This document shows, in pieces, positions 12,434 to 34,653 of a DNA stretch of 64,000 bases; position 1 is the first letter of the stretch, and each line of letters begins with the position of its first letter. A model generated the notes under the pieces. That model was given only the letters and a program-made list of their open reading frames with translations. It was not told the DNA's origin and searched no databases. The position numbers were made by a program, and so were the translations under genes. The stretch lies in the NCBI GenBank assembly GCA_964635565.1, contig CAZWON010000002.1, positions 14,936-78,935 on the forward strand. Direction: 5' to 3'. Origin of the DNA: an uncultured Planctomycetia bacterium (GTDB lineage Bacteria; Omnitrophota; Gorgyraeia; Duberdicusellales; 4484-171).

Positions 12434-12640
12434 CCAGGGTTTAAAATGAGGCTTTTGTGTTTGAGTAAATACACCTGCTTGTGGACATTCTTGTGCTTTA
12501 TCCATTATTTTTACCACACCAGATTAACGCAGAATAAGAGAACAAATGAACACAGATGGTTATGGATTGATATAGAAAAAAGCAGAGTTCCCCCTTTCCC
12601 CCAAAAATCTATATTTTCCTTTCCAGGAATCATATTCAAA

Positions 12641-13315: not shown

Positions 13316-13756
13316 TTATTCTTTCCATTCCATTCTAATAAGTTTTCTTTTACCATTAGGATAATTAACTATTGTTAATAATAAAACTTTATTATTAAGA
13401 TAATCAGTAGCCACTACTGTTATACCTTTGTTAACAGAAAATATCCGCCAGTTGGTAAATTTATTCCATTTTCCTCCTCCCTGACGGAAACTAAAGGCAA
13501 AACTTTCTATAAATCTCTTTACATATTCCTCTTTTTGCTGCATAGTCCTCAGTCTGTTAACTGTTCCCCCTACATTTATTCCCACTGCTACAAAAGAAGT
13601 CCAATCAATCAATCGCCCCACAGAAAAATCTCCTTTAATTAATCCCTTTAAACAACGGCGAGCAAAATCCACATCATTTCTTATCCCCGTGCATCCACTT
13701 ATAATAAATACAAAAACAAAAAATAAAGTAAACATATTTTTGGGTTTAATCTTCAT
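13316..13756 (-). CDS. Small lipoprotein of unknown function (146 aa).
   Basis: MKIKPKNMFTLFFVFVFIISGC gives a signal peptide with a lipobox Cys. Last gene of the Tad-like cluster. Confidence 0.55.
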   Translation of the reverse strand: MKIKPKNMFTLFFVFVFIISGCTGIRNDVDFARRCLKGLIKGDFSVGRLIDWTSFVAVGINVGGTVNRLRTMQQKEEYVKRFIESFAFSFRQGGGKWNKFTNWRIFSVNKGITVVATDYLNNKVLLLTIVNYPNGKRKLIRMEWKE

Positions 13757-13811
13757 CTTTCTCCTCCTAAGTTTAAAAAAGTTAAAATACCTAATAATAT
13801 TATTGCCAAGT

Positions 13812-16415: not shown

Positions 16416-16459
16416 TTTCTTCTCCTTAAATTTTACACCCCTTTATTCTTCTCATTTTA

Positions 16460-16714
16460 TTACTTAAAAACATCTAAATCAGGATACTCCGATTCATCAA
16501 CAAACACAGGCTTATCACTATGTTGGGTATCTTCTGATGCAGCATCGCGACGGGTATCATTATAATCTTTTTCTCTCTGAACCATCTGATTATTCATCCA
16601 CACAAATATATTGACTGCTCCTACCATTAGTATTACTACAACTGCTAAACTTACGGTAAGCTCTAATATAACCTGAGTTTTTTTAATAACTTGTCTGCCA
16701 CTCATTAGAATCAT
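16460..16714 (-). CDS. Small TadE-like pseudopilin (84 aa).
   Basis: RBS GGGAGGA before ATG (MILMSGRQVIKKTQVILELTVSLAVVVILMVGAV). Shares the KKxQ...E class-III-like prepeptide with the Flp array. The N-terminal part of the track ORF 16460..16936 overlaps the upstream gene and is rejected. Confidence 0.5.
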   Translation of the reverse strand: MILMSGRQVIKKTQVILELTVSLAVVVILMVGAVNIFVWMNNQMVQREKDYNDTRRDAASEDTQHSDKPVFVDESEYPDLDVFK

Positions 16715-17702
16715 TCCTCCCTTTAATGGTAGAAATGCTTTTAGAAGTATAACTACCTGATTCATCTCCATAAGGATGGTAAATAACCTCCCGGGTTGTA
16801 GTAAATGACCAATTAAAATCATCTTTTGAGATAATTTTTCCTTGCGGCTGTTGGTTAACTGTAAGGGTATCGTTTCTTTCTTTAACTTGAGCAATCTCGG
16901 GCTGGATTCCCATCGCTTTGGGCTTAATCTGCTCACCCCCTATAATACCGCCGAGATTAGCAAAAGCAAATAGCTCTTCCAGCTTATCACAATACCAGGG
17001 AGTATTTATAGATACCGCACACACTTCTTCACAGCTAAACTCGTAAGCACCTCCCTCTTCTCCGCTCCACCTGCCTTCTTCACACTGCTGGGCGCATACA
17101 TCCTTATCTGTAATCATTCTGCAAATTCTTACTGCTGAGCCGTAATCTATACTTTCTCCTGAATAGGGGTCTATTATGGTTACAACCCCTGAATCTTCAT
17201 CCCACTTAATATTTGAACCTCCATATATCTCTTTATATTTTTCTACTATCTTTTTTACTTCCTCATCCCCGCTACTACCCACATTTTCCTCTCTAATTGC
17301 AGCAAGATAAAATGTCTCTTTTCTACTATCATTTCCCTGAAACTCCATTGTTATTCTGGGTAGCTCTTCTTTGGTATCAGCAGTTTTATCTATACGATAA
17401 TTACGAACTACAATTGCACTACCGCTAAAACCTTCAGCGCTTCCCACCCCAAAAGGGTCGGAAGGGCTGGGAATATGCTTATCTCTTACAAGAAAATATG
17501 TTGCCTCGCGCATATCACGAGAGGCAGATGCCAAAGCTTTCCTAAAAGCATGCTGGCTTGTTCTCTGCTGAAAGTTATACTTGAGTCCGTAACTTACAAG
17601 AACACCTAAAATAAACAAAAAAACTCCTCCAAAAATGGCAGTTTCCACTAATGATTGTGCCTTTTTTCTGCTGGTATTATATTGCTCTATAATATTCATC
17701 AT
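16683..17702 (-). CDS. TadE/TadF-like pseudopilin (339 aa) with a Cys-rich C-terminal domain.
   Basis: N-terminus SRKKAQSLVETAIFGGVFLFILGVLV carries the same KKAQS motif as the pilins. The C-terminal region has many Cys (CAQQCEEGRW...SCEEVCAV...WYCDK). Confidence 0.5.
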   Translation of the reverse strand: MMNIIEQYNTSRKKAQSLVETAIFGGVFLFILGVLVSYGLKYNFQQRTSQHAFRKALASASRDMREATYFLVRDKHIPSPSDPFGVGSAEGFSGSAIVVRNYRIDKTADTKEELPRITMEFQGNDSRKETFYLAAIREENVGSSGDEEVKKIVEKYKEIYGGSNIKWDEDSGVVTIIDPYSGESIDYGSAVRICRMITDKDVCAQQCEEGRWSGEEGGAYEFSCEEVCAVSINTPWYCDKLEELFAFANLGGIIGGEQIKPKAMGIQPEIAQVKERNDTLTVNQQPQGKIISKDDFNWSFTTTREVIYHPYGDESGSYTSKSISTIKGRNDSNEWQTSY

Positions 17703-17707
17703 TCATA

Positions 17708-18559
17708 TTATATCCCAAATAACCCTCCCTCTTTAAACCGTATGAGAACAGGCCCTCCTATAATAATAATTACAACACCTAAAATAAGAATCAAAGGTAG
17801 AATAATAAGAATTGATGCTCTTATAGCTTGCTTTTCTCCTATTTGAATTCTCCTCTCCCGCGCATCCTCGGAAATAATGTCAAACACCTCGTGGATAGGT
17901 GTCCCCATCCGCTCTGCCTGAATTAATGTATTGGCAAAACTGCGTATTTCAGGAAGATTGATTCGGTTAACCAAGCTTAAAAGAGCCTCCTGCCTTGAGC
18001 GACCCATAATAATTTCATTTACAACAATCCGCAAATGATAAAGTAAGGGATTCATCTGTGTTTTTTCCAGTATCCACCGCAAACCGGAGAGGAAATCAAG
18101 ACCAGCCTCAATACATAACCCTAAAAGATCTATTGTCTCAGGAAGATGTTTTAAAATTTGAAATTTATATTTTTTAACCTTATCTATTAGCCAGATATCC
18201 GGTAAAACAAACCCTACTATACTAAATATAACAATAAGTGTAACATCCGTAGAGTTAGTAATTAAATAAAAACCAAAACCTCCTCCTATAGCAAATATTT
18301 CTTTTATAAACATAAAATCTTCAGGATTAAGGCGAGAATTAATAAATTGCAATTTACTGCGAAAAAAACCTTTAAGCCCCAGGATGCTTAATAAAAAAGT
18401 ATTTAAAGGATAAAATGGTAGGCTTAAAAAAACAATCGGCCTTTTTCTGGTATAATCTATATTTAATCTTTTTAATATAGAAACTTTTTCCTTTCCTGTA
18501 AAGGCTGTAAAAAATAAATACACTGCGGCGACAATAAAAACTATAATTATACCAACCAT
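17708..18559 (-). CDS. tadC: Tad pilus inner-membrane platform protein TadC-like (T2SSF/GspF family).
   Basis: T2SSF-domain-like sequence (GLDFLSGLRWILEKT...ARERRIQIGEKQAIRASILIILP) with several TM segments. Confidence 0.65.
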   Translation of the reverse strand: MVGIIIVFIVAAVYLFFTAFTGKEKVSILKRLNIDYTRKRPIVFLSLPFYPLNTFLLSILGLKGFFRSKLQFINSRLNPEDFMFIKEIFAIGGGFGFYLITNSTDVTLIVIFSIVGFVLPDIWLIDKVKKYKFQILKHLPETIDLLGLCIEAGLDFLSGLRWILEKTQMNPLLYHLRIVVNEIIMGRSRQEALLSLVNRINLPEIRSFANTLIQAERMGTPIHEVFDIISEDARERRIQIGEKQAIRASILIILPLILILGVVIIIIGGPVLIRFKEGGLFGI

Positions 18560-18569
18560 AGCCTCCCCC

Positions 18570-19439
18570 TTAATAATGCACGGTAGTAAAGATTTTGATT
18601 AAAAACAATGCTATCACTTGAAGGACTACCGCTGTTACCAAAAGCATTCTCCCCAAATCGCTCTGAAACATTATCTCAAAATGATGAGGATCCATTTTAT
18701 GCACCACTATAACAAATACAACTGGTAATATAGAGATAATCCCTGCCTGCATTCTCCCTTGAAAAGTCATAATCTTCATCTTATCATTTACTTTTTTTCT
18801 TTCCCGGATAGTCATAATGAGACGGGAAAATACTTTCACCAAGTTACCTCCTGTTTCTTTACCAATCACAATAGCTGTAGTCATAAGTTTTAGATATTCG
18901 GAATTAATCCGTTTGTTTAACATTTTTAAAGATTCCTCTAAAGATGCCCCTATTTTGTGTGCTCTTAATACCAGCTCAAACTCATCCTTTAAAGGAGGAA
19001 TACTGATGCTAACCATTGACTCAATAGCCTGAACAAAACTCAATCCTCCTTTGAGAGCATTGGAAATCTCAACTAAACCATCAATGAGCTGTTCATTAAA
19101 GCTCTCTATTCTTCTTTTTTTAAGTATTCTTAAGAATAAAGATGGAACAACAAAACCAATTGCAATTCCCATCACAGTAGTAAATACTGTCTTGGTCAGT
19201 ATATAGGCTATAATTCCTAGAACAAAAGGAAAAATTATTAAAAAAAATCTCAATTTAGAGGAAGGAGTGTAAAAAATATCTTCCAATTGAGAAGAAAATC
19301 TCTCAACTCTTTTATGGTGCAGATGGCTTATTTTTCTCAAATACTTATAAAAAGGTAAAGAGGGAAATGCCTGCGTAAACAGAAGTACAGCACCTCCTAC
19401 AAAAATGAGCGAGCTTGACAAAAGTAATCCTGGACTCAT
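18570..19439 (-). CDS. tadB: Tad pilus inner-membrane platform protein TadB-like (T2SSF/GspF family).
   Basis: LVEISNALKGGLSFVQAIESM...GKETGGNLVKVFSRL is typical of TadB/CpaG. Confidence 0.65.
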   Translation of the reverse strand: MSPGLLLSSSLIFVGGAVLLFTQAFPSLPFYKYLRKISHLHHKRVERFSSQLEDIFYTPSSKLRFFLIIFPFVLGIIAYILTKTVFTTVMGIAIGFVVPSLFLRILKKRRIESFNEQLIDGLVEISNALKGGLSFVQAIESMVSISIPPLKDEFELVLRAHKIGASLEESLKMLNKRINSEYLKLMTTAIVIGKETGGNLVKVFSRLIMTIRERKKVNDKMKIMTFQGRMQAGIISILPVVFVIVVHKMDPHHFEIMFQSDLGRMLLVTAVVLQVIALFLIKIFTTVHY

Positions 19440-19448
19440 TATTCCTCC

Positions 19449-19637
19449 TTAAGGCTGGTATTGACGACCATAACCAAACACATCAACTGAGGCTTTCCAC
19501 TTCCCGCAAATTGCTTTTTTCAAATAACCCTGCACCATAATTAGTGCTAACACTATAGTTAGGATAAATACCCCATACTCTATAAGAGAAACTGCTCTTT
19601 TATTTTGTAATTGTCTGGTCTCTAATTTGTGTAACAT
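19449..19637 (-). CDS. flp: Flp-family pilin paralog (62 aa).
   Basis: NKRAVSLIEYGVFILTIVLALIMV has a hydrophobic core after the conserved EY. Member of the tandem array. Confidence 0.6.
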   Translation of the reverse strand: MLHKLETRQLQNKRAVSLIEYGVFILTIVLALIMVQGYLKKAICGKWKASVDVFGYGRQYQP

Positions 19638-19917
19638 CTTCCTCTATATTCTCGACAGTTACTAACCCTAAATAATTCTCTCCATTTATGGTGACATTAT
19701 CTATATAACTATTCGTTGTACTATAAGAAGTTACGCTATAAGTAGAAATTGAATTTATCCCTTCTGTATCATACAACATCCCTAAGGAGTCTGATTGTGT
19801 TTTAACTCTTCCTGAATAAGCTCTTTTTAAATAAATACTCATCAGAACCAAACTGGCAGATATCACAGCAACCATCACACTATACTCCAATAATGTCTGG
19901 CTTCTTTTAATCTTCAT
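19600..19917 (-). CDS. flp: Flp-like pilin paralog with C-terminal extension (105 aa).
   Basis: MKIKRSQTLLEYSVMVAVISASLVLM. Confidence 0.55.
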   Translation of the reverse strand: MKIKRSQTLLEYSVMVAVISASLVLMSIYLKRAYSGRVKTQSDSLGMLYDTEGINSISTYSVTSYSTTNSYIDNVTINGENYLGLVTVENIEEDVTQIRDQTITK

Positions 19918-20239
19918 GCTCTATTTCTCCTTGCCAGGATGAAGAAGTTGCTTCTATAGAGACCTTGCTCTCTGAATCTATCATATGGGCGGTTGCGTTT
20001 TCCTCTATGGTTTTATTTTCATTGCTCTCAGTTGTTGTCTGGGAACCTAAGCTGAAACTTTTTTTAGGATTGAACTCTATAGAATACTGTTTTCCCTCGC
20101 TCATTTGATCAGCCTGATATTTCACTACAGACTGAATACTTCTCTTTATATAAGTCTGCATACTAATTACTGCTGCTGTAAGAACACTTACTAAAATTAC
20201 ATATTCACCAATAGACTGTGTTTTTAGCTTTACTCCCAT
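19907..20239 (-). CDS. flp: Flp-like pilin paralog with C-terminal extension (110 aa).
   Basis: MGVKLKTQSIGEYVILVSVLTAAVISM. Confidence 0.55.
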   Translation of the reverse strand: MGVKLKTQSIGEYVILVSVLTAAVISMQTYIKRSIQSVVKYQADQMSEGKQYSIEFNPKKSFSLGSQTTTESNENKTIEENATAHMIDSESKVSIEATSSSWQGEIEHED

Positions 20240-20706
20240 AAATTTTCTTGTTTTAAACTCACTCCTGAAAAACTGTCTGTATAGCTTGTTTTTGTATACT
20301 CGTCTTCCAATAGCTCATCTTTAACTTCTCCATTAAACTGAAAAGTCCTTCTTGTATGAGAAAAAGAATGGGTTGATTTTACAAGATTACTATGTGAAGG
20401 AGAAAACTGAATTCCTAAAGCATTAGCATCTTTCATTAATCTTCCTTGATTGGCTGTTTTTATATAGACAAAAGAAATCACCATAGAAACCCCAATTAAA
20501 GCAATCAATACCCCATATTCAATTATAGCCATAGCTTTTCCAGATTCTTTTCTTTTTTTTGTATAGCCAAAAGAAGATATGTGTGTGCTGTAATTATTAA
20601 TAATTTTTCTAATACCCTTGTTCAATTTTAATCTCCCTCTCTCTGAATTTCTTAGAAATATCTTCTCAGAACCTAAAATAGCTTTTAGTCTAGAAAGCAT
20701 TACCAC
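20230..20706 (-). CDS. flp: Flp-like pilin paralog with C-terminal extension. Start uncertain: possibly a TTG after RBS AGGGAG, giving about 133 aa.
   Basis: KKRKESGKAMAIIEYGVLIALIGVSMVISF motif. The track ORF starts further upstream. Confidence 0.45.
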   Translation of the reverse strand: MVMLSRLKAILGSEKIFLRNSERGRLKLNKGIRKIINNYSTHISSFGYTKKRKESGKAMAIIEYGVLIALIGVSMVISFVYIKTANQGRLMKDANALGIQFSPSHSNLVKSTHSFSHTRRTFQFNGEVKDELLEDEYTKTSYTDSFSGVSLKQENLWE

Positions 20707-20709
20707 CTT

Positions 20710-21033
20710 CTAATTCCACCCATCATCCTGAGTTGAATCTATTCCTGTTATCCTCTGGCCCCTCGTAGTTGTATTAGTAGAAAATGTATGTTGTATATCC
20801 GAAGCGCTATGACTTTCCTTACTTTCCTGATAAGTTTCTGTCTCTATATTCTCAAAGATATAATATGGGGTATACTGGCGAGGCACCCCTGCTATCTCTG
20901 TTACAAAATCACTTGCTCCTTTTAATCTTGCCTGATAACCCCTTTTAATAAAAGTCTGCATAGCGATAAAAGCACTTATCACTACTCCTACTAAAAGGGC
21001 ATATTCAGTTATGCTCTGTGCTTTCTTATTCAT
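20710..21033 (-). CDS. flp: Flp-like pilin paralog with C-terminal extension (107 aa).
   Basis: RBS GGAG, then ATG MNKKAQSITEYALLVGVVISAFIAM. The track used an upstream TTG. Confidence 0.55.
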   Translation of the reverse strand: MNKKAQSITEYALLVGVVISAFIAMQTFIKRGYQARLKGASDFVTEIAGVPRQYTPYYIFENIETETYQESKESHSASDIQHTFSTNTTTRGQRITGIDSTQDDGWN

Positions 21034-21035
21034 TA

Positions 21036-21197
21036 TCAATGGTCTCCAATAATATGTGATATTTTATCTCCCAAGGCATTATAGTAAGTATCAAGCCCAT
21101 TTTTAATAGAGCCCTTAAATCCTATTATCAAAGCCAAAATAATAGCAGTAACCATCAAAAGATACTCTACTGTAGCCTGACAACTTTTACTACACAT
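21036..21197 (-). CDS. flp: Flp pilin (53 aa), missing from the ORF track because it is under 60 aa.
   Basis: RBS GGAG. MCSKSCQATVEYLLMVTAIILALIIGFKGSIKNGLDTYYNALGDKISHIIGDH read by hand from the reverse complement. Confidence 0.55.
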   Translation of the reverse strand: MCSKSCQATVEYLLMVTAIILALIIGFKGSIKNGLDTYYNALGDKISHIIGDH

Positions 21198-21199
21198 AC

Positions 21200-21574
21200 T
21201 TACTCACTCCAAATATCAGATTCATTACCTTTAAGGTTGTAATTGATTCCCCAGTCTTTCTTACTGACCTGCCCTCCCTTATAATTGAGATCTATCTCGC
21301 TCTCTAAGCCTAATCCGCTATCAACCAATTGTGATTCTGACCAGTATCCACTACCAATAGCATCACTTGACCCTGTGGTTTCATTTGAACTGGCCTGATC
21401 CCAGCTATTGCTCGTATAGTTTGCTCCAAAATGTTCAGTGCTTATGCTATCTGCGGAACTCTTAAATCTACCACTAATAGCTTGTTTCACGTATCTCTGT
21501 GCTATTATTACAGCAGCAAGAAAGACAGCAATTAACACTGCATATTCTGTCATACTTTGTGCCTTTTTTCTCAT
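21200..21574 (-). CDS. flp: Flp-like pilin paralog with C-terminal extension (124 aa).
   Basis: RBS GGAGGTGAG, then ATG MRKKAQSMTEYAVLIAVFLAAVIIA. The track ORF is extended 5' to 21703. Confidence 0.55.
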   Translation of the reverse strand: MRKKAQSMTEYAVLIAVFLAAVIIAQRYVKQAISGRFKSSADSISTEHFGANYTSNSWDQASSNETTGSSDAIGSGYWSESQLVDSGLGLESEIDLNYKGGQVSKKDWGINYNLKGNESDIWSE

Positions 21575-21608
21575 TCTCTCACCTCCGCTCTGTATTTCTT
21601 CTATTACA

Positions 21609-22007
21609 TTACCTCTCTTCTTCCCATAAGTTATCAGCGGTATCACGAAGCGCATGCTGTTTAGAAAATCCCCCACTTCCTCTTCCACTAATCTCACTGC
21701 CACTGATATTAGCTACATAATCATTATTTACGTTGATATCGGTTTTACTGGCCTGTTGAGTTTGATATTGTGATTCTAAATAGTAAGGTTCGTACTGCTT
21801 TATGCTCTTAAACTCTGCTGTTACGTCTGTCATATTTTCAGCTGTCATTGTAAAAGACGGCTGAGTCAAAGCATTTACTCCTGCAGCTGTTCGAGCCTGT
21901 AAACCACGTTTGATATATACCTGCATTGCCACTGCCGCAGAAATAACCACACCCAGAATAATTGCATATTCCGCTGTTGATTGAGCTTTTTTTATCCTTA
22001 TTAACAT
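21609..22007 (-). CDS. flp: Flp-like pilin paralog with C-terminal extension (132 aa).
   Basis: MLIRIKKAQSTAEYAIILGVVISAAVAM. Confidence 0.55.
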   Translation of the reverse strand: MLIRIKKAQSTAEYAIILGVVISAAVAMQVYIKRGLQARTAAGVNALTQPSFTMTAENMTDVTAEFKSIKQYEPYYLESQYQTQQASKTDINVNNDYVANISGSEISGRGSGGFSKQHALRDTADNLWEEER

Positions 22008-22032
22008 ATTACCCCCCTTTTTTTATGGAATA

Positions 22033-22230
22033 CTACTCCTCACTTAACCCCATTTTACTGCTTATCTCAGTAGAAGCTTTGTCAATAATCTGTCCTGCAG
22101 TATCTGCCATCTTCTCTGCTTTAGGCTTAATAACACTCTTGGCAGCATAAATAAATGCTAATATCAATGCGGCAGCAAGTAAAGTATATTCCACAGTAGA
22201 TTGGCCGTTTTTCTTTAACTTCATAAACAT
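22033..22230 (-). CDS. flp: Flp pilin (65 aa).
   Basis: RBS AAGGAGG with a 5-nt spacer, then ATG MFMKLKKNGQSTVEYTLLAAALILAFIYA. G at -5 relative to the EY Glu matches the G/XXXXEY TadV site. Confidence 0.6.
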   Translation of the reverse strand: MFMKLKKNGQSTVEYTLLAAALILAFIYAAKSVIKPKAEKMADTAGQIIDKASTEISSKMGLSEE

Positions 22231-22249
22231 AAAACTACCTCCTTTTATT

Positions 22250-22414
22250 TTAAGATGCTTCACTTTCTGCTTCTATATTAATCTGATCCTCAATAAGCTT
22301 AAGATTTGCCTGCGTCGCTCTCTGGACATAAACACTCATTGCCACAATAGCTGCAGCTACAACACTTACTAACATTATATACTCAACAATACTCTGAGAA
22401 GCTCTTTTCACCAT
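22250..22414 (-). CDS. flp: Flp pilin (54 aa), missing from the ORF track.
   Basis: RBS GGGGG. MVKRASQSIVEYIMLVSVVAAAIVAMSVYVQRATQANLKLIEDQINIEAESEAS. Confidence 0.6.
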   Translation of the reverse strand: MVKRASQSIVEYIMLVSVVAAAIVAMSVYVQRATQANLKLIEDQINIEAESEAS

Positions 22415-22415
22415 C

Positions 22416-22595
22416 CTACTTTACCCCCATCTCTTCCATCTTTCTAACAAAGAAATCTTCGCTTTCTTCTTTTACTCTCTGGATAGCATTATTAAAACCC
22501 AAAACCGTTAAAATAATAATCAAAGCAAACGCTAAGAAATATTCAACTACTGCTTGAGCTTTTCTTTTCCTTTGAATATTTTTATCTGACCTCAT
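22416..22595 (-). CDS. flp: Flp pilin (59 aa), first gene of the array, missing from the ORF track.
   Basis: MRSDKNIQRKRKAQAVVEYFLAFALIIILTVLGFNNAIQRVKEESEDFFVRKMEEMGVK. An AT-rich 770-bp promoter region lies upstream. Confidence 0.6.
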   Translation of the reverse strand: MRSDKNIQRKRKAQAVVEYFLAFALIIILTVLGFNNAIQRVKEESEDFFVRKMEEMGVK

Positions 22596-22913: not shown

Positions 22914-22945
22914 TTTAGGCCTATTTTTAGGCCTAAATATAGGCT
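22914..22945. promoter_or_regulatory. Candidate operator upstream of the pilin array. Palindromic AGGCCT hexamers as direct repeats at about a 12-bp spacing (TTAGGCCTATTTTTAGGCCTAAATATAGGCT).
   Basis: Seen directly in the intergenic region between the cpaF-like gene and the first flp. Confidence 0.3.
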
Positions 22946-23370
22946 TTGTAGAAATACTCATACGCTTTTGGATAATTTTTCTTCTCTAAATATACTCTTC
23001 TTAGTATCCTTTACTCTTATAGAAAAATAAAAATGCTATCCACAGAAGTAAATTTAACTTCGCTCTTATTATGAATCCTTTAAGAAACAACATTTACCTG
23101 CTAAAACATAAATTTTCTATTAGAAGTAACGGGTTTGATGTCTTGGCTATAGGAATTAATACTCTTTTATCAGAAAGAAAAAACTCAAAAGGGGAATAAC
23201 AAGAGCTTCTTTATAAAATCTTGCCAAAGCAAATCTATTTTTAATTAGAGAACTTCATTTGAAACATTATTGCTGGCGAAATAGTTAATCCCGCAAGCAT
23301 TATAATAAAAAGAATAAAGTCAACTTTCTTCAACATATTCTACTTATTATTTATATCTTTTCTATCTTTT

Positions 23371-25539
23371 TTAGGTATGAGGAGAAAAAATATCAGAAGA
23401 GAGTTTAATGTCTCGCGAGACAATCTCATCATAGAATGTGGGAATATAACCGGTTGGAGAAAAATCGCCAACAATCTCACCGCCAGGAGCAACACCTTTT
23501 TGTTTAAAAACAAATATATCTTTTAAGTTGGGTCTGCCATTGGGTGTTAATCCTGCGAGTTCAGTAATCTGAATAACTTTTCGTGAACCATCGGATAAAC
23601 GAGCGGTGTGGACAATTAAATCTATGGCAGAGGCAATTGTTTCTTCAATTGCTCTTAAAGGTAACTCTATGCCACTCATAAGAACCATATTATCTAATCG
23701 GATAATAACTTCATGGGTAGAATTAGCATGGATAGTTGATAATGAACCATCGTGCCCTGTATTCATTGCCTGAAGCATATCTAAAACTTCTTTACCCCGA
23801 CACTCCCCAACAATTATTCTATCCGGGCGCATACGTAATGCATTTCTGAATAACTCCCTTATAGTAACTTCTCCTTTACCTTCTATATTAGGAGACCGTG
23901 CCTCTAATCGAATCCAATGGGTTTGAGACAACTTAAGTTCTGCGGTATCCTCAATAGTTATAATGCGCTCGTTAACAGGTATATAGGTAGAGAGAATATT
24001 TAAAAGGGTTGTTTTGCCAGAACCAGTTCCTCCTGAGATTAAAATATTCTTCCGGGCCATAACTACTGCTTCTAAAAATTCCCCCATTTGTGGTGTAAGA
24101 GACTTAAATCTGTTAATCAATTCTTCCATTCCTAATCTTTTGTAAGGAAATTTTCGAATAGTAAGGGTAGGTCCACTTAAAGATAAAGGAGGGATTATGG
24201 CATTCACCCTCGAACCATCAGGAAGACGTGCATCTACATAAGGAGAAAATTCATCAATCCGTCTTCCCAAAGGAGCAAGGATTCTATCAATAATTAACTT
24301 CACTTGTTCATTTGAGATAAACCGTTTGCTGGTAAGTTCGATTTTACCATTTTTCTCAATAAAGACTTGGTCCATATTGTTTACCATTATTTCAGTGATA
24401 TTGGGATCGCGTATCAAATCCTCCAAAGGACCCAACCCTAAAGCTTCATCAACAATCTCTTGAACCAATTTTCTTCTTATCTCCAAAGAAGAAATGAAGC
24501 TTTGAGTTTCTTCTATTAAAATATTATTTACGACTCTTTCTGCTGTTTCTCTTAATTCCTTAGACTTATCTGTATCTAACATTAAAACTTCTACAGGCAT
24601 CCTCTTCAGGTCCATTCGCTCAATTAATTTCCGGTGAACTTTTTCTTTTAAGGTTATAATTGGGTCTTCCTCTCTTGTCTTAACTTGAAGAGGCTCCACT
24701 AATCCCAGATTAACTAATAAACTACTTCCTCCATCAATTACCTCTGCGGGTCTCTTTCTAAGCTTAAGTTCAGACAGCTCTTTTGTAGGAAGATAAATAT
24801 CCTCTCTTTCTAAAAGCTCATCTGCTAATTTCTTTATAGCTAAAGTTACACTACTACGGGAATTATCTAAAACTACAGGAATACCTTTATTTAAAGCAAC
24901 TCCTACAGATTTTCCTTCCGAAGGAATCTGAGAAAAAATCTCTACAGGAAAAACCATCTTTACTTCTCCTACATCCACTCCTCCTCTACTCTCTGCCCTA
25001 TTAAGAATAATTTTTAACATTTTTAAAGGAAAATATAAACTCTGTAAAGTATCCAATATCCACTCAGTATGATAAACGGAAAGGATATCAGGAGTTACTA
25101 TAAGAAATATCAAATTAGAATTATTAAAAATTTTCACCAAATTATCGCTTAGACTTCTACCGCCGTCTATAATAATAAAGTCATAATCCAATTTTTGAAA
25201 TAAGGTTAAGAATTCTTCAATATGTTGGGGTTTAATATGATGAATTAATCTTAAGGAAGATGCTGCTGACAAAAAATCAAGAGAAGAATTTAAAGAAGTA
25301 AAGAAACTTTTTACATCTTTCTTGCCTCCCATAATTTCTTTAGTGTGAGCAATTAAATCTATCAGGGTCCTTTGAGGCTTTATATTAGCCATTTTCACCA
25401 TATCTAAGGGGGCATTCAGGTCTAACGATATAAGTAGAATTTTTTTCTTCTGTAAAGAAAGGCTAACCGCAACATTAAGAGTAACCATGGTTGTACCCAC
25501 GCCACCTTTTGTGCTAAAAAATACAACTGTCTTTGTCAT
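23371..25539 (-). CDS. Fused TadZ/CpaE-like (MinD/ParA-family, degenerate Walker A) and TadA/CpaF secretion ATPase (722 aa).
   Basis: N-terminus VVFFSTKGGVGTTMVTLNVAVSL is ParA/MinD-like. The C-terminal half has a T2SSE-type P-loop ILISGGTGSGKTTLLN plus Asp/His boxes. Confidence 0.7.
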   Translation of the reverse strand: MTKTVVFFSTKGGVGTTMVTLNVAVSLSLQKKKILLISLDLNAPLDMVKMANIKPQRTLIDLIAHTKEIMGGKKDVKSFFTSLNSSLDFLSAASSLRLIHHIKPQHIEEFLTLFQKLDYDFIIIDGGRSLSDNLVKIFNNSNLIFLIVTPDILSVYHTEWILDTLQSLYFPLKMLKIILNRAESRGGVDVGEVKMVFPVEIFSQIPSEGKSVGVALNKGIPVVLDNSRSSVTLAIKKLADELLEREDIYLPTKELSELKLRKRPAEVIDGGSSLLVNLGLVEPLQVKTREEDPIITLKEKVHRKLIERMDLKRMPVEVLMLDTDKSKELRETAERVVNNILIEETQSFISSLEIRRKLVQEIVDEALGLGPLEDLIRDPNITEIMVNNMDQVFIEKNGKIELTSKRFISNEQVKLIIDRILAPLGRRIDEFSPYVDARLPDGSRVNAIIPPLSLSGPTLTIRKFPYKRLGMEELINRFKSLTPQMGEFLEAVVMARKNILISGGTGSGKTTLLNILSTYIPVNERIITIEDTAELKLSQTHWIRLEARSPNIEGKGEVTIRELFRNALRMRPDRIIVGECRGKEVLDMLQAMNTGHDGSLSTIHANSTHEVIIRLDNMVLMSGIELPLRAIEETIASAIDLIVHTARLSDGSRKVIQITELAGLTPNGRPNLKDIFVFKQKGVAPGGEIVGDFSPTGYIPTFYDEIVSRDIKLSSDIFSPHT

Positions 25540-25543
25540 AAAT

Positions 25544-27160
25544 TCATCTTTCTGCTCTATACACTATGGGGACTTCAATATTTACCTCTTCCAAACGCAT
25601 CTGGGGAGAAAAAGGAGGGTAAGATAATTTTCTTACTACTTTTAATGCTTCTTCGTCAAATATCTTATAGCCTGAAGAACGAACAATACTTACATCTTTA
25701 AGTTCTCCTGCGGATGATAGTCTTAAAGATAAAACCAAATTCCCTTCCCACCCTGTATGTCGTAACACGCGAGGATAAGAAATATTACTTAAAATTCTTC
25801 TCTGAACCTGATAAGCATACTCTTTAAACTCATCCGGAATATTAGTCTGGCCGTACAATTTAAATATCCCCCTTTTTGTGGAAAATTCTTCCTGCAAAAA
25901 ATCATCTTCTTTGTCCGCTTTGCTTTCCATATTAATAATATGAGGAGTTAAAGTAATAAAAAGTTCAGTATTTCCCCTTTGACCTGCACCCCCTCCTATA
26001 CTTATGGATCTGTGTCTGAAAAAAGCTCCTAATACAGGAAGGTCTGCTAACCAGGGAAATCTTTTTAAATCCTCATCTGTCTTTTCCTTTATAAGTCCTC
26101 CTATAGAAAGAGTTGCTTTATCTCTTAAAGAAACCTCTGTAGAGATTATCCTCTTTGTTAAAGGATATGCTTTAGCTGTAGGAGCATCAGGATCCCCTAT
26201 AGTTTCTACCGGTTGTAATTCGCTTACTTCTATATCCAATTTAATATCCACCTTATCTCTATTGACTACTTTGGGTTCAATATTTAACTTTATTCCATAT
26301 TCTTTATATTCAATATTAGTACCCTCTCCTTCAGAAGAAACTTCTGTAGCAAAAATGGGAACTTCTCCTCCTATAAGAAGGCTAGCGGTTTTACCGCTTC
26401 TACACACCAATCGGGGACGAGACAAAATTCTTGCCTCGCCTTTCTGAATTAATAAATCTAATGTGAAGCTAAAAGCAGAGCGTGTCCAGTCAGAAACGTG
26501 AAGTAATGCTGAAAGACCTGTTACTGCCTGGACAGTTGGCCCGCTTGACTCTGTAAACTTAATAGCACTGGGCATATCAAACCCTAAGGTTCTAACGGCA
26601 TCTTTGCTTAATTCTAACACCTGCACTTCAATCTCTACACTTGATTCTTCTTCCCGCACATTAATAAAATCTAAAACTTTATCTTTAAGTTTCCCTAATG
26701 CTGCCATAAGTCTATTTTTCTCTTCTTCTGTTTTTACTTCTCCTTTTAGCAAAACCTTATTCTCGCTGTCTAAGGCTTTGGTATAAATATTTAAAAACCC
26801 TATATTTTTTAAAAGATTATCAATTCTTTTCTTAATCAATGCCATATTCTCCTTATATACTTTAACTTCTATACTGTGGTGCCCAAATTTATCCCACCAG
26901 TTAAAAGAAGTTTCTCCTTCGGTTTTACCTACAATAGTTATATCTTTTTCTGTAACATTAACCACATCTATTACCTCAGGATTACCAATAGCAATACGCT
27001 GGGGGCTGTTTACAGAAATTACTTTCTGTTCATTTACATATAAAACAAGAGTTGTTTCATCGCTACTAAATAAATCCTGGAAATTTTGAGAAAAAAGAAA
27101 TGAACTGTTTCCTAAAAATATTACACAAAAAAGAATAATCTTTAAATATGTTTTTTTCAT
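25544..27160 (-). CDS. cpaC: CpaC/RcpA-type secretin with a C-terminal TonB_C-like domain (538 aa).
   Basis: Signal peptide. QRIAIGNPEVIDVV is a pilus-formation N-terminal motif. Secretin core LLIQKGEARILSRPRLV...FPWLADLPVLGAFF. C-terminus YPRVLRHTGWEGNLVLSLRLSSAGELKDVSIVRSSGYKIFDEEALKVVRKLSYPPF matches the TonB C-terminal fold. Confidence 0.65.
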   Translation of the reverse strand: MKKTYLKIILFCVIFLGNSSFLFSQNFQDLFSSDETTLVLYVNEQKVISVNSPQRIAIGNPEVIDVVNVTEKDITIVGKTEGETSFNWWDKFGHHSIEVKVYKENMALIKKRIDNLLKNIGFLNIYTKALDSENKVLLKGEVKTEEEKNRLMAALGKLKDKVLDFINVREEESSVEIEVQVLELSKDAVRTLGFDMPSAIKFTESSGPTVQAVTGLSALLHVSDWTRSAFSFTLDLLIQKGEARILSRPRLVCRSGKTASLLIGGEVPIFATEVSSEGEGTNIEYKEYGIKLNIEPKVVNRDKVDIKLDIEVSELQPVETIGDPDAPTAKAYPLTKRIISTEVSLRDKATLSIGGLIKEKTDEDLKRFPWLADLPVLGAFFRHRSISIGGGAGQRGNTELFITLTPHIINMESKADKEDDFLQEEFSTKRGIFKLYGQTNIPDEFKEYAYQVQRRILSNISYPRVLRHTGWEGNLVLSLRLSSAGELKDVSIVRSSGYKIFDEEALKVVRKLSYPPFSPQMRLEEVNIEVPIVYRAER

Positions 27161-28104
27161 TCAGAAATAGATATATATTCTTTATTTAGTCCCCGGTAAA
27201 TCTCTATCTTTTTAGGCTCAAGCTTTTTAGGCTCAAGGGGTTTTACCTCTACCTGGGGCAAAGTAGAATTTATATACTGAAAAAGAGTATCCCATCCTGC
27301 AGGAGGAAGAGGTTTTACTTTTGCATCGGCAGGAGAACGTAAAACCAGACGAATTCTTCCCTGTTCAACAACAAAAGACAATAAACTTGCCTCTTGAGGA
27401 GAAAGTGCCAAGGTAATCAAAGGATTTTTTTCTTCTTTTGTACTTCTTTGTTTTAACCGCAAACTCCATAAACCAGTCTTTCCTTTTTCTTTTTTTTCTA
27501 ATAACTTTTCTCCTACAGCTAAAACTAAAACTTTCTGAAAAAGGGGTATAGTAGTATTAGTAGTCTTAGTCCCTTCAGGAGTTTTAACAGGTAAAGGTAA
27601 AAGAGCAATAACATCAACATAGTCTCCTGGTTTAATCATTCCTACCAAACCACTTATATTATCCACACTAACCGTAATTGCTCTTTTACCTACAGGTGTT
27701 GCCATTGCCAAAGATTCCCCCCTTGCCATCGTGGGAGACATCAGTTTACTTAAAGTAATCTGTTCTCCCTTGTTTATAGCAACAACTGTTTTCATACCAA
27801 TTATTCTGTCTGCGGAAGTTACAGATTTAGGCTGGATATATTCATTAGGAATTACTTTCGTCTCAATCATACTCTGTACAATTTCTGCTCCGGCGGGTAT
27901 ATCTTTTTTAGCGACAATCACTGAGTTTAAATTTTTATATCTTTCCATAAATGTCTTCTTTAAATTATTATACATTTTATTCCTTTCTTCTTTTATATAA
28001 GTATTTATAAGAATAATTGCGCCTATACTTAAGATGATCCCTCCGCTTAAACTTAACATCTTTTTAGATATTCTTGGCCCCATTAAACCTCGCCTTTGTT
28101 TCAA
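27157..28104 (-). CDS. cpaB: CpaB/RcpC-like Flp pilus assembly protein (SAF domain).
   Basis: N-terminal TM segment, VIVAKKDIPAGAEIVQSMIE SAF-like, GMIKPGDYVDVIAL. Confidence 0.6.
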   Translation of the reverse strand: MKQRRGLMGPRISKKMLSLSGGIILSIGAIILINTYIKEERNKMYNNLKKTFMERYKNLNSVIVAKKDIPAGAEIVQSMIETKVIPNEYIQPKSVTSADRIIGMKTVVAINKGEQITLSKLMSPTMARGESLAMATPVGKRAITVSVDNISGLVGMIKPGDYVDVIALLPLPVKTPEGTKTTNTTIPLFQKVLVLAVGEKLLEKKEKGKTGLWSLRLKQRSTKEEKNPLITLALSPQEASLLSFVVEQGRIRLVLRSPADAKVKPLPPAGWDTLFQYINSTLPQVEVKPLEPKKLEPKKIEIYRGLNKEYISISE

Positions 28105-28125: not shown

Positions 28126-29040
28126 TTACTGAATCTTATCTTCCATTATCTCTATTTTAGCATTTCTTGATAAATTACCCACAAGGTCATCTATTCTTTT
28201 CTGCTGTTTTATAAATGTCAAACCTCTCTTTATATCATCCCACATCTCGGAGAGAGTTTTTTGTTTTCCTCCTTTTTTACCCTCTACAGTAATAATATAA
28301 TACCCATCTGGCCCTTTAAATACACTGCTTATCCCCCCTACACTCAAAGCATCGGAAAAAGCTATCTCATCAAATTCTTTAAATTTTGTGCCTGGCTTAA
28401 TGAAGCCTAAATCCCCTCCTTTCTCAGCAGTAGGTGCCTTAGAGTACTGGCGGGCTAAAGAAGCAAAGTCCTCACCTTGCAATAACCTGATTAATAAATC
28501 TTTTGCTTGAGATTCACTAATAACTACTATTTCTCTTATCTTTCTTTCTTCTGGCTCTTTTAAATTTTCTTTAGCAACATTGTAATAATCCTTAATTTCT
28601 TGAGGAGTAACGTTTACTTTATCTGTTTCCTCCTTAACTAACTGGTAGACAAGCAGTTGCTGTTTAGTATTCTCCAATGCTTTTATCACCTCAGGATTCC
28701 TATCCAAACCTCTATCCAAGGCTTCTTGATAAAGAAGAATGCGCTTTATAACTTCATTTTTTAAATAATCTAATTTTTTTTCTCGTGTAGTTATTTTAAG
28801 CTCAGGTTTATCCTCAGGGACTGCATTATTATAACGGTCTATTTCCTCCTCTAAATCTTCTAAAGTAATGGGATAACCATTTACCTTAGCAATAACTGTT
28901 CCTGTAACAGGAAGTTTGGAAGTAAAGGGCTCTTTTTTGGACTCTGAGGCAGGTTTTTTACTGAATTTTAATTTATCACAGCTCACAAGAAAAAAACTAA
29001 TACAGACAATTAATCCTATTATAAAACTCCTCCCTTTCAT
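28126..29040 (-). CDS. Parvulin-type peptidyl-prolyl isomerase lipoprotein (PrsA/SurA-like).
   Basis: Lipobox LVSC. PPIC motif region QYSKAPTAEKGGDLGFIKPG. Confidence 0.6.
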   Translation of the reverse strand: MKGRSFIIGLIVCISFFLVSCDKLKFSKKPASESKKEPFTSKLPVTGTVIAKVNGYPITLEDLEEEIDRYNNAVPEDKPELKITTREKKLDYLKNEVIKRILLYQEALDRGLDRNPEVIKALENTKQQLLVYQLVKEETDKVNVTPQEIKDYYNVAKENLKEPEERKIREIVVISESQAKDLLIRLLQGEDFASLARQYSKAPTAEKGGDLGFIKPGTKFKEFDEIAFSDALSVGGISSVFKGPDGYYIITVEGKKGGKQKTLSEMWDDIKRGLTFIKQQKRIDDLVGNLSRNAKIEIMEDKIQ

Positions 29041-34642: not shown

Positions 34643-34653
34643 ATTGCACAAAT

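What the first reader, a model, noticed from the sequence alone, without database searches (positions are those of the whole stretch)
25544..27160. Secretin fused to a TonB C-terminal domain
The CpaC/RcpA-type secretin has an extra C-terminal segment of about 120 aa whose sequence (YPRVLRHTGWEGNLVLSLRLSSAGELKDVSIVRSSGYKIFDEEALKVVRKLSYPPF) matches the TonB_C/TolA_C fold. This could anchor the secretin to peptidoglycan or couple it to an energising system. Such a fusion is uncommon.
Basis: partly seen in the sequence, partly recalled or inferred. Interest (0 to 1): 0.6.

Follow-up and report, generated by a model that had tools for sequence, protein, structure and literature searches.

The report
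Tad secretin with tethered TonB domain
The outer-membrane pore protein of a pilus-like secretion machine in an Omnitrophota bacterium really does end in a TonB-type binding domain on a flexible tether; the fusion is the rule across this phylum, has apparently not been interpreted in print, and probably serves as a built-in anchor or docking ring rather than an energy coupler.

Summary
ORF 25544-27160 (minus strand, 538 aa) is one uninterrupted gene. It encodes a signal peptide, a CpaC/RcpA-type N-domain, a Secretin domain (aa 237-409), a variable linker and a TonB_C domain (Pfam 9.7e-18; predicted fold matches solved TonB C-terminal domains at 1.7-3.6 Å).

The fusion is not an artefact. All 80 best species-level genome loci, almost all labelled Omnitrophota, carry it in one stop-free frame. 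Of 265 family members with a complete secretin domain, 261 keep TonB_C and 13 have two copies. The spacer is low-complexity and 17-358 aa long.

The gene lies in a conserved operon: lipoprotein PPIase, CpaB, secretin, a CpaE-CpaF fusion, Flp pilins, TadB/C, then a giant ORF. This is the published "secretion system preceding Omnitrophota giant genes". No paper I could search identifies the TonB domain as part of the secretin.

It is not a TonB energy transducer. It has no membrane anchor and no SHLS motif, and the window holds no ExbBD.

The likeliest role is inferred, not shown: a tethered ring of TonB_C domains that docks or anchors the secretin to an envelope partner, standing in for the separate belt proteins of other secretins.

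It is a new variant of a known kind, of moderate interest.

The parts
25544..27160 (-). Whole gene: Tad-type secretin fused to a TonB_C domain (538 aa plus stop codon)
   Evidence: ORF; domains; identical protein P0001 found on a 169-kb public contig.
27089..27160 (-). Signal peptide (about aa 1-24): Sec-type, no lipobox
   Evidence: The only hydrophobic 19-aa windows lie at aa 4-24, there is no [LVI][ASTVI][GAS]C motif, and no SHLS motif.
26858..27055 (-). CpaC/RcpA-type N-terminal beta domain (PF13629), aa 36-101
   Evidence: Pfam 5.1e-12; pLDDT 95-97.
25934..26452 (-). Secretin pore domain (PF00263), aa 237-409
   Evidence: Pfam 1.7e-36. Foldseek ranks 1-40 are solved secretins, including RcpA 8odn. 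It is the most conserved region of the family (0.76).
25835..25933 (-). Variable tether, aa 410-442 (charged, one Pro)
   Evidence: pLDDT below 50 at aa 413-431. Majority-residue frequency is 0.23, against 0.60-0.76 for the domains. Across the family the spacer runs from 17 to 358 aa.
25547..25834 (-). TonB_C domain including its leading helix, aa 443-538 (Pfam core 459-535 = nt 25556-25786)
   Evidence: Pfam TonB_C 9.7e-18 and TonB_2 6.1e-06; TIGR01352; PDB sequence hits 6sly and 5lw8; Foldseek TM 0.62-0.77 normalised to target and rmsd 1.6-3.6 Å to TonB C-terminal domains; Y462, P463, G485, D502, F517 and P531 are invariant.
27157..28104 (-). CpaB/RcpC alignment protein, translationally coupled to the secretin
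   Evidence: Pfam RcpC 1.4e-21 and SAF 1.3e-08; found next to the secretin in 75 of 80 loci.
28126..29040 (-). First gene of the operon: predicted lipoprotein PPIase (parvulin domain plus SurA_N-like region)
   Evidence: Pfam Rotamase_3, Rotamase_2 and Rotamase; SurA_N matches fall below their cut-offs. Lipobox LVSC. Syntenic in 71 of 80 loci. Named as conserved in this locus type by West-Roberts 2023.
23371..25539 (-). CpaE(TadZ)-CpaF(TadA) fusion ATPase, 722 aa
   Evidence: Pfam AAA_31, CbiA and ParA at aa 3-206 and T2SSE at aa 367-647; syntenic in 76 of 80 loci.
19449..22595 (-). Array of 11 small Flp-type pilin genes carrying the 'xEY + hydrophobic helix' motif
   Evidence: Translations. 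A regex matched 7; the other 4 (starting 22263, 21197, 20239 and 19637) show ...VEY...VEY...GEY and ...IEY by eye.
17708..19439 (-). Two T2SSF-domain platform proteins (TadB-like and TadC-like)
   Evidence: Pfam T2SSF 1.5e-15 and 8.8e-15.
13316..17702 (-). Operon tail: 339-aa pilin-like protein, 867-aa TadE/G-like protein, and a 146-aa predicted lipoprotein
   Evidence: Pfam Tad (TadE/G-like) 2.1e-04, just below its cut-off; N-terminal KKAQSLVET motif and lipobox ISGC.
2..12505 (-). Giant ORF directly downstream (at least 4168 aa, runs off the window) with an N-terminal C39 peptidase domain
   Evidence: Stop-free frame; Peptidase_C39 at aa 174-259; matches the published description of Omnitrophota giant genes.

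Best explanation
The gene encodes the outer-membrane secretin of a Tad-like (type IVc) pilus or secretion machine. This is the machine that in Omnitrophota sits directly upstream of giant genes. After the last strand of the pore domain, where other secretins have an S-domain or a tail that binds a pilotin, the chain continues through a flexible low-complexity tether into a genuine TonB C-terminal domain. A secretin ring has about 13-15 subunits, so the assembled pore would carry a periplasmic ring of that many tethered TonB_C domains, twice as many in the two-domain variants. This is not a TonB energy transducer: it has no inner-membrane anchor and no link to ExbBD. The most likely role is a built-in docking or anchoring belt. 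Each TonB_C domain would bind a short beta-strand of another envelope protein by beta-strand augmentation, the binding mode named for TonB and TolA C-terminal domains in the paper read. That would fix or position the secretin in the envelope and could aid its assembly. The belt would stand in for separately encoded proteins used elsewhere: the TadD pilotin ring in Pseudomonas, and the OmpA-like CpaD belt in Caulobacter. What is shown: the fusion, the fold, its phylum-wide conservation, the tether, and the absence of TonB N-terminal features. What is inferred: the ring geometry, the binding mode, and the anchoring function.
For: The fusion and fold are real. All 80 of the 80 best species-level loci have a single stop-free frame across both domains. 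TonB_C is retained in 261 of 265 family members, and 13 have two copies. The TonB_C core is about as conserved as the secretin's own N-domains (0.60 versus 0.61-0.65), while the tether is not (0.23) and varies from 17 to 358 aa with K/E/A/S/P-rich composition. That is the pattern expected for a domain that must reach a target rather than pack on the barrel. The protein ends 3-4 residues after the last strand, so there is no RcpA-type C-terminal tail; in RcpA the last 4 residues bind TadD. No TadD-like TPR, OmpA, LysM or AMIN domain was detected in the operon proteins scanned. Other Tad secretins are known to be encircled by accessory belts tethered at or near this position. The modelled domain superimposes on TonB domains solved in complex with FhuA, BtuB, FoxA and TbpA.
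Against: A 146-aa predicted lipoprotein at the end of the operon and the lipoprotein PPIase at its start could act as pilotins, so the absence of a belt or pilotin is not established. The small pilin genes were not all scanned for domains. Tethers of 150-358 aa in some members are longer than a belt hugging the barrel would need, and suggest a more distant target. A few relatives lack TonB_C, so it is not strictly indispensable, although some of those come from short contigs.
Confidence: 0.42

Rival explanations
1. Direct peptidoglycan anchor. The tethered TonB_C domains bind the cell wall itself and hold the secretin against pilus extension and retraction forces, as has been proposed for the OmpA-like CpaD belt in Caulobacter.
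For: The tether lengths (17-358 aa) fit a domain reaching from under the outer membrane to the wall. Caulobacter CpaC is belted by a protein predicted to bind peptidoglycan. No other peptidoglycan-binding domain was found in the operon proteins scanned. From my own knowledge, not verified here: peptidoglycan binding and a LysM resemblance have been reported for the E. coli TonB C-terminus, and AMIN domains of PilQ and the LysM protein TsaP are described as wall anchors of type IVa secretins.
Against: The only binding mode named for this fold in what I read is beta-strand addition to a protein target. The Foldseek matches are only TonB and TolA domains, with no LysM, OmpA or other peptidoglycan-binding fold. 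No wall-binding motif could be tested here.
Confidence: 0.2
2. Inter-subunit staple. The TonB_C domains bind each other or a strand of the neighbouring secretin subunit, stabilising the ring or driving its assembly without a pilotin, as an S-domain does.
For: The domain occupies the S-domain position after the pore domain. TonB C-terminal domains have been crystallised as dimers (1ihr). The operon shows no recognisable TadD.
Against: Long and highly variable tethers, and tandem duplication of the domain, are not what a tightly packed staple needs. The monomer model keeps the domain separate behind a low-confidence linker. The dimeric TonB crystal forms match the model poorly (1ihr and 1qxx, E above 0.7).
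Confidence: 0.13
3. Cargo or effector docking. The TonB_C ring captures a TonB-box-like strand on a substrate, most interestingly the giant protein encoded directly downstream or a minor pilin, and so recruits it to the pore.
For: The secretion locus and the giant gene are linked here and, according to the published survey, across the phylum. A TonB homologue's C-terminal domain can bind a protein cargo directly: FusB-ferredoxin, 9hi3 and the paper listed.
Against: No TonB-box-like motif was identified in any candidate. A secretin lumen wide enough for a pilus says nothing about a protein of more than 4000 aa. How giant proteins are exported is unknown; the authors note SecA-like domains within the giant proteins.
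Confidence: 0.12
4. Energy or signal coupling. The domain links the secretin to a proton-motive-force-driven motor, directly or by competing for TonB boxes on TonB-dependent transporters, to gate the pore or position the machine, in the spirit of PocAB-TonB3 in Pseudomonas.
For: A TonB paralogue system is needed for type IVa pilus assembly and localisation, and a contact between TonB3 and the PilQ secretin has been proposed. Some family members have Pro/Lys/Glu-rich spacers resembling TonB domain II (P0151).
Against: There is no membrane anchor and no SHLS motif. No ExbB/ExbD/TolQR, TonB or TonB-dependent transporter gene lies anywhere in the 64-kb window. A domain fixed to the outer membrane cannot transmit force from the inner membrane by itself.
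Confidence: 0.05
5. Artefact. Two adjacent genes were merged by an assembly or sequencing error, or the TonB_C match is a chance hit.
For: None found.
Against: A single stop-free frame is seen in 80 of 80 independent assemblies. The identical protein occurs in several public sources. E-values range from 1e-14 to 1e-18 and structure agrees.
Confidence: 0.01

Closest known systems
RcpA/CpaC secretins of Tad (type IVc) pili (P. aeruginosa RcpA-TadD, PDB 8odn; C. crescentus CpaC)
   Same: It has the same N-domain (PF13629) and Secretin domain. It sits in the same kind of operon, with CpaB/RcpC, a CpaF ATPase, a TadZ/CpaE-like ATPase, two T2SSF platform proteins and Flp-type pilins. The predicted fold matches 8odn.
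   Different: RcpA ends in a short unstructured tail whose last 4 residues bind the TadD pilotin ring. CpaC is belted by the separate OmpA-like lipoprotein CpaD. Here the tail is replaced by a tether plus a TonB_C domain in the same chain, and no TadD or CpaD homologue was detected in the operon proteins scanned.
TonB C-terminal domain (E. coli TonB 2grx/2gsk, H. pylori TonB 6sly, P. aeruginosa TonB 6i97, FusB 7zc8)
   Same: It shares the fold (helix, two strands, helix, strand), the YP and SSG motifs, a full-length HMM match, and rmsd of 1.6-3.6 Å.
   Different: It is attached to an outer-membrane pore rather than to an inner-membrane helix that engages ExbBD. It has no SHLS motif, and the window protein has no Pro-rich spacer. 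NCBI's name for many members, 'TonB family protein', is therefore misleading.
The secretion system preceding Omnitrophota giant genes (West-Roberts et al. 2023, bioRxiv 10.1101/2023.11.21.568195)
   Same: It has the same gene set in the same order: gspD-like secretin, gspE-like ATPase, gspF-like platform proteins, rcpC, a Rotamase_2 PPIase, small class-III-signal-peptide genes, then a giant gene with an N-terminal C39 peptidase.
   Different: That paper does not mention TonB or describe the secretin's architecture. A 2026 preprint lists 'TonB-domain' genes flanking giant genes without linking them to the secretin.
Accessory anchors of other secretins (the CpaD OmpA-like belt; AMIN domains of PilQ; the TsaP LysM ring; GspD S-domain with pilotin)
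   Same: These are accessory modules at the periphery of a secretin that fix it in the envelope or aid its assembly. CpaD and TadD are documented, and TsaP bound to PilQ appears as 6ve2.
   Different: They use different folds. AMIN domains are N-terminal, and TsaP, CpaD and pilotins are separate proteins. None is a TonB_C domain. The roles of AMIN and TsaP are cited from my own knowledge.
PocAB-TonB3 of P. aeruginosa
   Same: It is a TonB-family protein functionally tied to a type IV pilus machine, with a proposed contact to the secretin.
   Different: TonB3 is a separate inner-membrane protein with its own ExbBD-like motor. Here only the C-terminal domain is present, and it is fused to the secretin.

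Membership tests
Secretin superfamily (PF00263) | Secretin pore domain above the curated threshold | tested here: met
   125.8 bits against a cut-off of 27.5, profile positions 2-168 of 169.
Secretin superfamily (PF00263) | Predicted fold matches solved secretins | tested here: met
   Foldseek ranks 1-40 are all secretins, E from 2e-23 to 2e-07, including RcpA 8odn.
Secretin superfamily (PF00263) | Forms a 12-15-mer gated ring in the outer membrane | not testable with these tools
   Only monomer prediction was available.
Tad/Flp (type IVc) pilus system | RcpA/CpaC-type secretin with a PF13629 N-domain next to RcpC/CpaB | tested here: met
   PF13629 5.1e-12; neighbouring RcpC 1.4e-21; synteny in 75 of 80 loci.
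Tad/Flp (type IVc) pilus system | CpaF/TadA ATPase, TadZ/CpaE ParA-like ATPase, and two single-domain T2SSF platform proteins | tested here: met
   T2SSE 5.5e-63 fused to a ParA/MinD-like N-domain; two T2SSF proteins.
Tad/Flp (type IVc) pilus system | Short Flp-type pilins with an xEY motif followed by a hydrophobic helix | tested here: met
   11 small ORFs carry the motif. Pfam gave no significant Flp-family hit for those scanned, so this rests on reading the motif.
Tad/Flp (type IVc) pilus system | Dedicated prepilin peptidase (TadV/CpaA) | tested here: not met
   No peptidase A24 hit in any ORF of at least 100 aa in the 64-kb window. It may be encoded elsewhere in the genome.
Tad/Flp (type IVc) pilus system | TadD-type TPR pilotin | tested here: not met
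   No TPR lipoprotein in the operon. Two predicted lipoproteins of other kinds are present.
TonB_C domain family (PF03544 / TIGR01352) | HMM match above the curated threshold over the full domain | tested here: met
   64.8 bits against 24.6, profile positions 2-78 of 79; TIGR01352 53.9 bits against 27.1.
TonB_C domain family (PF03544 / TIGR01352) | TonB C-terminal domain fold with YP and SSG motifs | tested here: met
   pLDDT above 90. The top 15 PDB matches are TonB C-terminal domains, TM 0.41-0.77 normalised to target, at least 0.62 for all but HasB. Y462 and P463 are invariant, and S495, S496 and G497 are at least 90% conserved.
TonB energy-transducer proteins (TonB/TolA class) | N-terminal inner-membrane helix with the SHLS motif that engages ExbB/ExbD (feature as described) | tested here: not met
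   The N-terminus is a cleavable signal peptide followed by secretin domains. There is no His in the first 35 aa, no SHLS pattern, and no second hydrophobic segment.
TonB energy-transducer proteins (TonB/TolA class) | Periplasm-spanning domain II between the anchor and the C-terminal domain | tested here: inconclusive
   The window protein has only a 33-aa charged linker with one Pro. Some relatives have K/E/P-rich spacers of 150-358 aa that resemble domain II.
TonB energy-transducer proteins (TonB/TolA class) | Cognate ExbB/ExbD (TolQ/TolR) motor and TonB-dependent transporters | tested here: not met
   None in the 64-kb window. The rest of the genome could not be examined.
TonB energy-transducer proteins (TonB/TolA class) | Binds a TonB-box strand by beta-augmentation | not testable with these tools
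   This needs multimer modelling or binding assays.

The most novel reading that the evidence does not exclude
This could be an 'inverted TonB': an arm consisting of a spacer plus a TonB C-terminal domain, anchored in the outer membrane through the secretin rather than in the inner membrane. It would capture a TonB-box-like strand on the giant protein encoded downstream, or on a motor-linked periplasmic partner. That would couple recruitment, export or surface display of the giant effector to the Tad-like pore. It would be a mode of secretin-substrate coupling not described in any paper I searched, and a handle on how Omnitrophota deploy proteins of more than 4000 aa.
Probability: 0.1. Interest if true: 0.8.

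Novelty: new variant of a known kind. Interest (0 to 1): 0.5.

Why it matters
Secretins are anchored and assembled with lineage-specific accessory proteins, and in Tad systems that layer is only now being resolved (TadD in Pseudomonas, CpaD in Caulobacter). A TonB_C domain tethered in the same chain to the secretin across a whole phylum adds a different solution. It also shows the TonB/TolA binding domain reused without its motor.

The machine concerned is conserved next to the giant genes of ultra-small, probably predatory or parasitic Omnitrophota. The partner of this domain is therefore a concrete, testable route to how that machine is fixed in the envelope, and possibly to how it relates to the giant proteins.

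There is a practical consequence too. Database names for these proteins each describe only half of the protein ('TonB family protein' at NCBI, 'CpaC' at JGI). At least one genome survey appears to have counted them as unexplained 'TonB-domain' genes.

Tried and rejected
1. Artefact or frameshift was rejected. All 80 of 80 independent loci have one stop-free frame and a single alignment spanning both domains.

2. A canonical TonB was rejected. The protein has no membrane anchor and no SHLS motif, and the window has no ExbBD.

3. A search for the fusion outside Omnitrophota was inconclusive. The exhaustive representative search carries no names. The cluster look-up named only two clusters: one Omnitrophota, and one 'Hydrothermarchaeota' on a 3.5-kb contig that is probably mis-binned. 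The genome scan titles are Omnitrophota or generic submitter labels such as 'uncultured Planctomycetia' and 'Patescibacteria group'. I could not get GTDB taxonomy.

5. Looking for a separate TonB_C gene next to the few unfused secretins (P0147, P0264, P0267) was not possible. Those ids are not accepted by the contig look-up, and their contigs are under 3 kb.

6. Partner prediction could not be done.

7. I considered whether the 'GTVIAKVNG' segment of the PPIase is a TonB box. I rejected this because, by my own reading of SurA and PrsA sequences, it looks like their usual N-terminal motif.

8. The literature searches found no description of a secretin-TonB_C fusion: secretin with TonB_C or PF03544, Omnitrophota with TonB, the TonB/TolA evolution paper, the type IV filament superfamily paper, and the Myxococcus Kil paper.

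9. My regex for Flp motifs was too strict and missed 4 of the 11 pilins, which are evident by eye.
Full report
**Observation.** Its ATG overlaps the stop codon of the upstream gene (ATGA), and the next gene starts 4 nt after its stop, so it sits inside a tightly packed operon.

Pfam places three domains above their curated cut-offs:
- A CpaC/RcpA-type N-domain (PF13629, aa 36-101, 5.1e-12).
- A Secretin domain (aa 237-409, 1.7e-36).
- A TonB_C domain (aa 459-535, 9.7e-18, 64.8 bits against a cut-off of 24.6, covering profile positions 2-78 of 79).

NCBIfam's tonB_Cterm model agrees at 1.7e-14. The C-terminal 129 aa also hit solved TonB C-terminal domains by plain sequence search (H. pylori TonB 6sly at 2.1e-07), with the alignment running from the helix before the YP motif to the last strand.

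**Structure.** An AlphaFold2 model built on a 63-sequence family alignment has mean pLDDT 77.9. The C-terminal domain reaches 86-96, behind a linker with pLDDT below 50 at aa 413-431. A domain-only model gives pLDDT above 90 with helix, strand, strand, helix, strand topology.

Foldseek of the whole model against the PDB lists 40 secretins first, including the Tad secretin RcpA (8odn). It then lists TonB C-terminal domains with TM 0.62-0.76 normalised to target and rmsd 1.7-3.2 Å. The domain-only model returns TonB domains as its first 15 hits, including TonB bound to FhuA, BtuB, FoxA and TbpA. TolA domain III follows, and nothing else is significant. Sequence and structure therefore both support a secretin fused to a TonB_C domain.

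**Is the fusion an artefact?** It is not.
- The 120 best homologues in the 5.8-billion-protein collection all carry Secretin plus TonB_C. They are 44-74% identical to the query and about 500-570 aa long. Where they are named, they come from Candidatus Omnitrophota.
- A scan of one genome per GTDB species found 273 relatives. All 80 best loci match the query through residues 533-538. In all 80, one stop-free frame and a single BLASTP alignment span the pore domain and the TonB_C domain.
- An exhaustive HMMER pass over 1.84 billion representatives found 293 clusters at E of 1e-30 or better.
- Among all 265 family members in hand with a complete pore domain, 248 have one TonB_C, 13 have two in tandem and 4 have none.

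**Anatomy of the C-terminal extension.** The TonB_C core is about as conserved across the family as the secretin's own N-terminal domains: majority-residue frequency 0.60 against 0.61-0.65, with the pore domain at 0.76. Y462, P463, G485, D502, F517 and P531 are invariant. The linker is barely conserved (0.23) and varies in length.

Family-wide, the spacer between the two domains runs from 17 to 358 residues. It is low-complexity and rich in K, E, A, S and P. In some members (P0151) it resembles the Pro/Lys/Glu-rich periplasm-spanning region of TonB. The protein ends 3-4 residues after the last strand. This is the signature of a selectively maintained binding domain on a flexible tether.

**What it is not.** TonB and TolA are defined by an N-terminal inner-membrane helix with an SHLS motif that engages the ExbBD or TolQR motor, a periplasm-spanning region, and the C-terminal domain. 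Here the N-terminus is a cleavable signal peptide followed by secretin domains. There is no SHLS pattern and no second hydrophobic segment, and the window protein's linker has one proline.

I scanned every ORF of at least 100 aa in the 64-kb window. Apart from the Tad operon, it is chromosomal housekeeping: EF-G, RpoD, DnaG, PheST, ThrRS, PurH, MnmE, TrkAH and a V/A-type ATPase. There is no ExbB/ExbD, TonB or TonB-dependent transporter. NCBI's product name for many members, 'TonB family protein', and JGI's 'CpaC' each describe half of the protein.

**Context.** The operon, all on the minus strand, runs in this order:
- A predicted lipoprotein PPIase.
- CpaB/RcpC.
- The secretin.
- A 722-aa CpaE(TadZ)-CpaF(TadA) fusion.
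- Eleven Flp-type pilin genes.
- Two T2SSF platform proteins.
- A 339-aa pilin-like protein.
- An 867-aa TadE/G-like protein.
- A 146-aa predicted lipoprotein.

The PPIase, CpaB, secretin and CpaE-F order is conserved in 71-76 of the 80 loci. Immediately downstream lies a stop-free frame of at least 4168 aa that runs off the window, with a C39 peptidase domain near its N-terminus.

This matches what West-Roberts et al. (2023, bioRxiv 10.1101/2023.11.21.568195) describe. [quoted passage not shown] The giant proteins carry N-terminal C39 domains.

That paper never mentions TonB. Seymour et al. 2023 (PMC10066038) discuss Omnitrophota Tad and RcpA, also without mentioning TonB. A 2026 preprint notes two 'TonB-domain' genes flanking giant genes and does not connect them with the secretin. 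The TonB/TolA evolution paper, the type IV filament superfamily paper and the Myxococcus Kil paper do not mention such a fusion, and targeted searches found none. The architecture is therefore visible in databases but, as far as I could search, uninterpreted.

**Mechanism.** Two published Tad systems show that the secretin barrel is encircled by an accessory belt:
- In P. aeruginosa, the TadD pilotin ring is held by the last four residues of RcpA's unstructured C-terminal tail and is required for assembly.
- In Caulobacter, the belt is the OmpA-like lipoprotein CpaD, proposed to anchor the pore to peptidoglycan, while the TadD orthologue is dispensable.

The Omnitrophota secretin has a covalently tethered TonB_C domain at that same C-terminal position. 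No TadD-, OmpA-, LysM- or AMIN-type protein was detected in the operon proteins scanned. The paper read describes TonB and TolA C-terminal domains as binding their targets by beta-strand addition, and the model superimposes on TonB domains caught in such complexes.

My best explanation (confidence about 0.4) is a non-energised ring of roughly 13-15 tethered TonB_C domains that docks the secretin to an envelope partner by strand augmentation. This would position or stabilise the pore and take the place of the separate belts used elsewhere.

The rivals are:
- Direct peptidoglycan binding (0.2).
- An S-domain-like staple between subunits (0.13).
- Docking of a cargo such as the giant protein or a pilin (0.12). 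There is a precedent in FusB, whose TonB-like domain binds ferredoxin.
- Energy or signal coupling in the manner of PocAB-TonB3 (0.05).
- Artefact (0.01 or less).

The fusion, the fold, the conservation, the tether and the missing TonB N-terminal features are shown. The ring geometry, binding mode, partner and function are inferred.

Several caveats apply. Two predicted lipoproteins in the operon could be pilotins, so I do not claim the system lacks one. The very long tethers of some members argue for a target farther away than the barrel surface. I could not examine whole genomes for Ton components.

**Verdict.** 'Uncommon' holds only outside Omnitrophota. The energy-coupling idea is disfavoured, and anchoring remains plausible but untested. 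This is a new variant of a known kind: a Tad-type secretin with a domain accretion that I did not find described. Its interest is moderate (0.5). Domain accretion on secretins is not surprising in itself, but this one is phylum-wide, reuses the TonB binding module without its motor, and belongs to the machine linked to Omnitrophota giant genes.

Noticed in passing
window 2-12505 (-): A giant stop-free frame of at least 4168 aa runs off the left end of the window, directly downstream of the Tad-like operon. Its only Pfam hit is a C39 peptidase domain at aa 174-259, so more than 95% of it is unannotated. It fits the published Omnitrophota giant-gene class.
   Followed up: partly
window 23371-25539 (-): The TadZ/CpaE-like ParA/MinD ATPase (aa 3-206) and the CpaF/TadA secretion ATPase (aa 367-647) are fused into one 722-aa protein. 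The gene is syntenic in 76 of 80 related loci; I did not check that the fusion itself is kept in each. This is a second gene fusion in the same machine.
   Followed up: partly
window 28126-29040 (-): The first gene of the operon is a predicted lipoprotein (lipobox LVSC) with a parvulin PPIase domain and a weak SurA_N-like region. It is syntenic in 71 of 80 loci and could be a dedicated chaperone, or a functional stand-in for a pilotin, for the secretin.
   Followed up: partly
window 13316-13756 (-): A 146-aa predicted lipoprotein (lipobox ISGC) with no Pfam hit lies at the end of the operon, just before the giant gene. Its size and position would suit a pilotin. tblastn found it in only 2 other loci, but most loci do not extend that far.
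   Followed up: no
window 19449-22595 (-): There are eleven tandem small Flp-type pilin paralogues (53-167 aa as listed) with an xEY motif followed by a hydrophobic helix. This is an unusually large pilin array for a Tad locus. No prepilin peptidase was found anywhere in the window.
   Followed up: partly
window 22596-23370: A stretch of about 775 bp between the ATPase gene and the first pilin gene has no ORF longer than 42 aa. It may hold a strong internal pilin promoter or a regulatory RNA. It was not examined.
   Followed up: no
window 13812-16415 (-): An 867-aa protein has a TadE/G-like N-terminus (Pfam Tad 2.1e-04, just under its cut-off), a long Gly/Ala-rich segment and a Cys-rich C-terminal half. 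tblastn at E of 1e-5 or better found it in only 2 of 80 loci, so it appears to evolve quickly.
   Followed up: no
window 32026-35583 (+): A FIST-domain protein, a histidine kinase and a response regulator with a GGDEF diguanylate cyclase domain lie about 3 kb from the operon start. West-Roberts et al. report PilZ genes after giant genes and GGDEF domains within them, so c-di-GMP control of this locus is conceivable.
   Followed up: no
proteins P0159, P0175, P0230, P0246 (family members, not in the window): These variant secretins have two tandem TonB_C domains and spacers of up to several hundred residues. P0230 (1091 aa) has two near-identical spacer-plus-TonB_C repeats, a long Lys/Glu-rich tail and a sequence near its C-terminus that looks TPR-like by eye. 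P0264 replaces TonB_C with a Glu/Lys-rich C-terminal region.
   Followed up: partly
locus L002 (MVCW01000039.1, Candidatus Omnitrophica bacterium 4484_171), match 3920-5530: This genome carries the PPIase, CpaB, secretin-TonB_C and CpaE-F cluster at 59% identity to the window. Seymour et al. 2023 state that Tad complexes are absent from the Velamenicoccia family named 4484-171. Their detection criteria may have missed this divergent system, or the genome and the family may differ.
   Followed up: no
loci L031/L044 (JAZDPH01) and L070/L074 (JBDRMO01): Two genomes each contain two separate loci encoding the fused secretin, so some Omnitrophota carry paralogous copies of the whole machine.
   Followed up: no
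window 61488-63983 (-): V/A-type ATPase subunits (D, B and the C-terminal part of A) lie at the right edge of the window. This is noted only as context for the organism.
   Followed up: no
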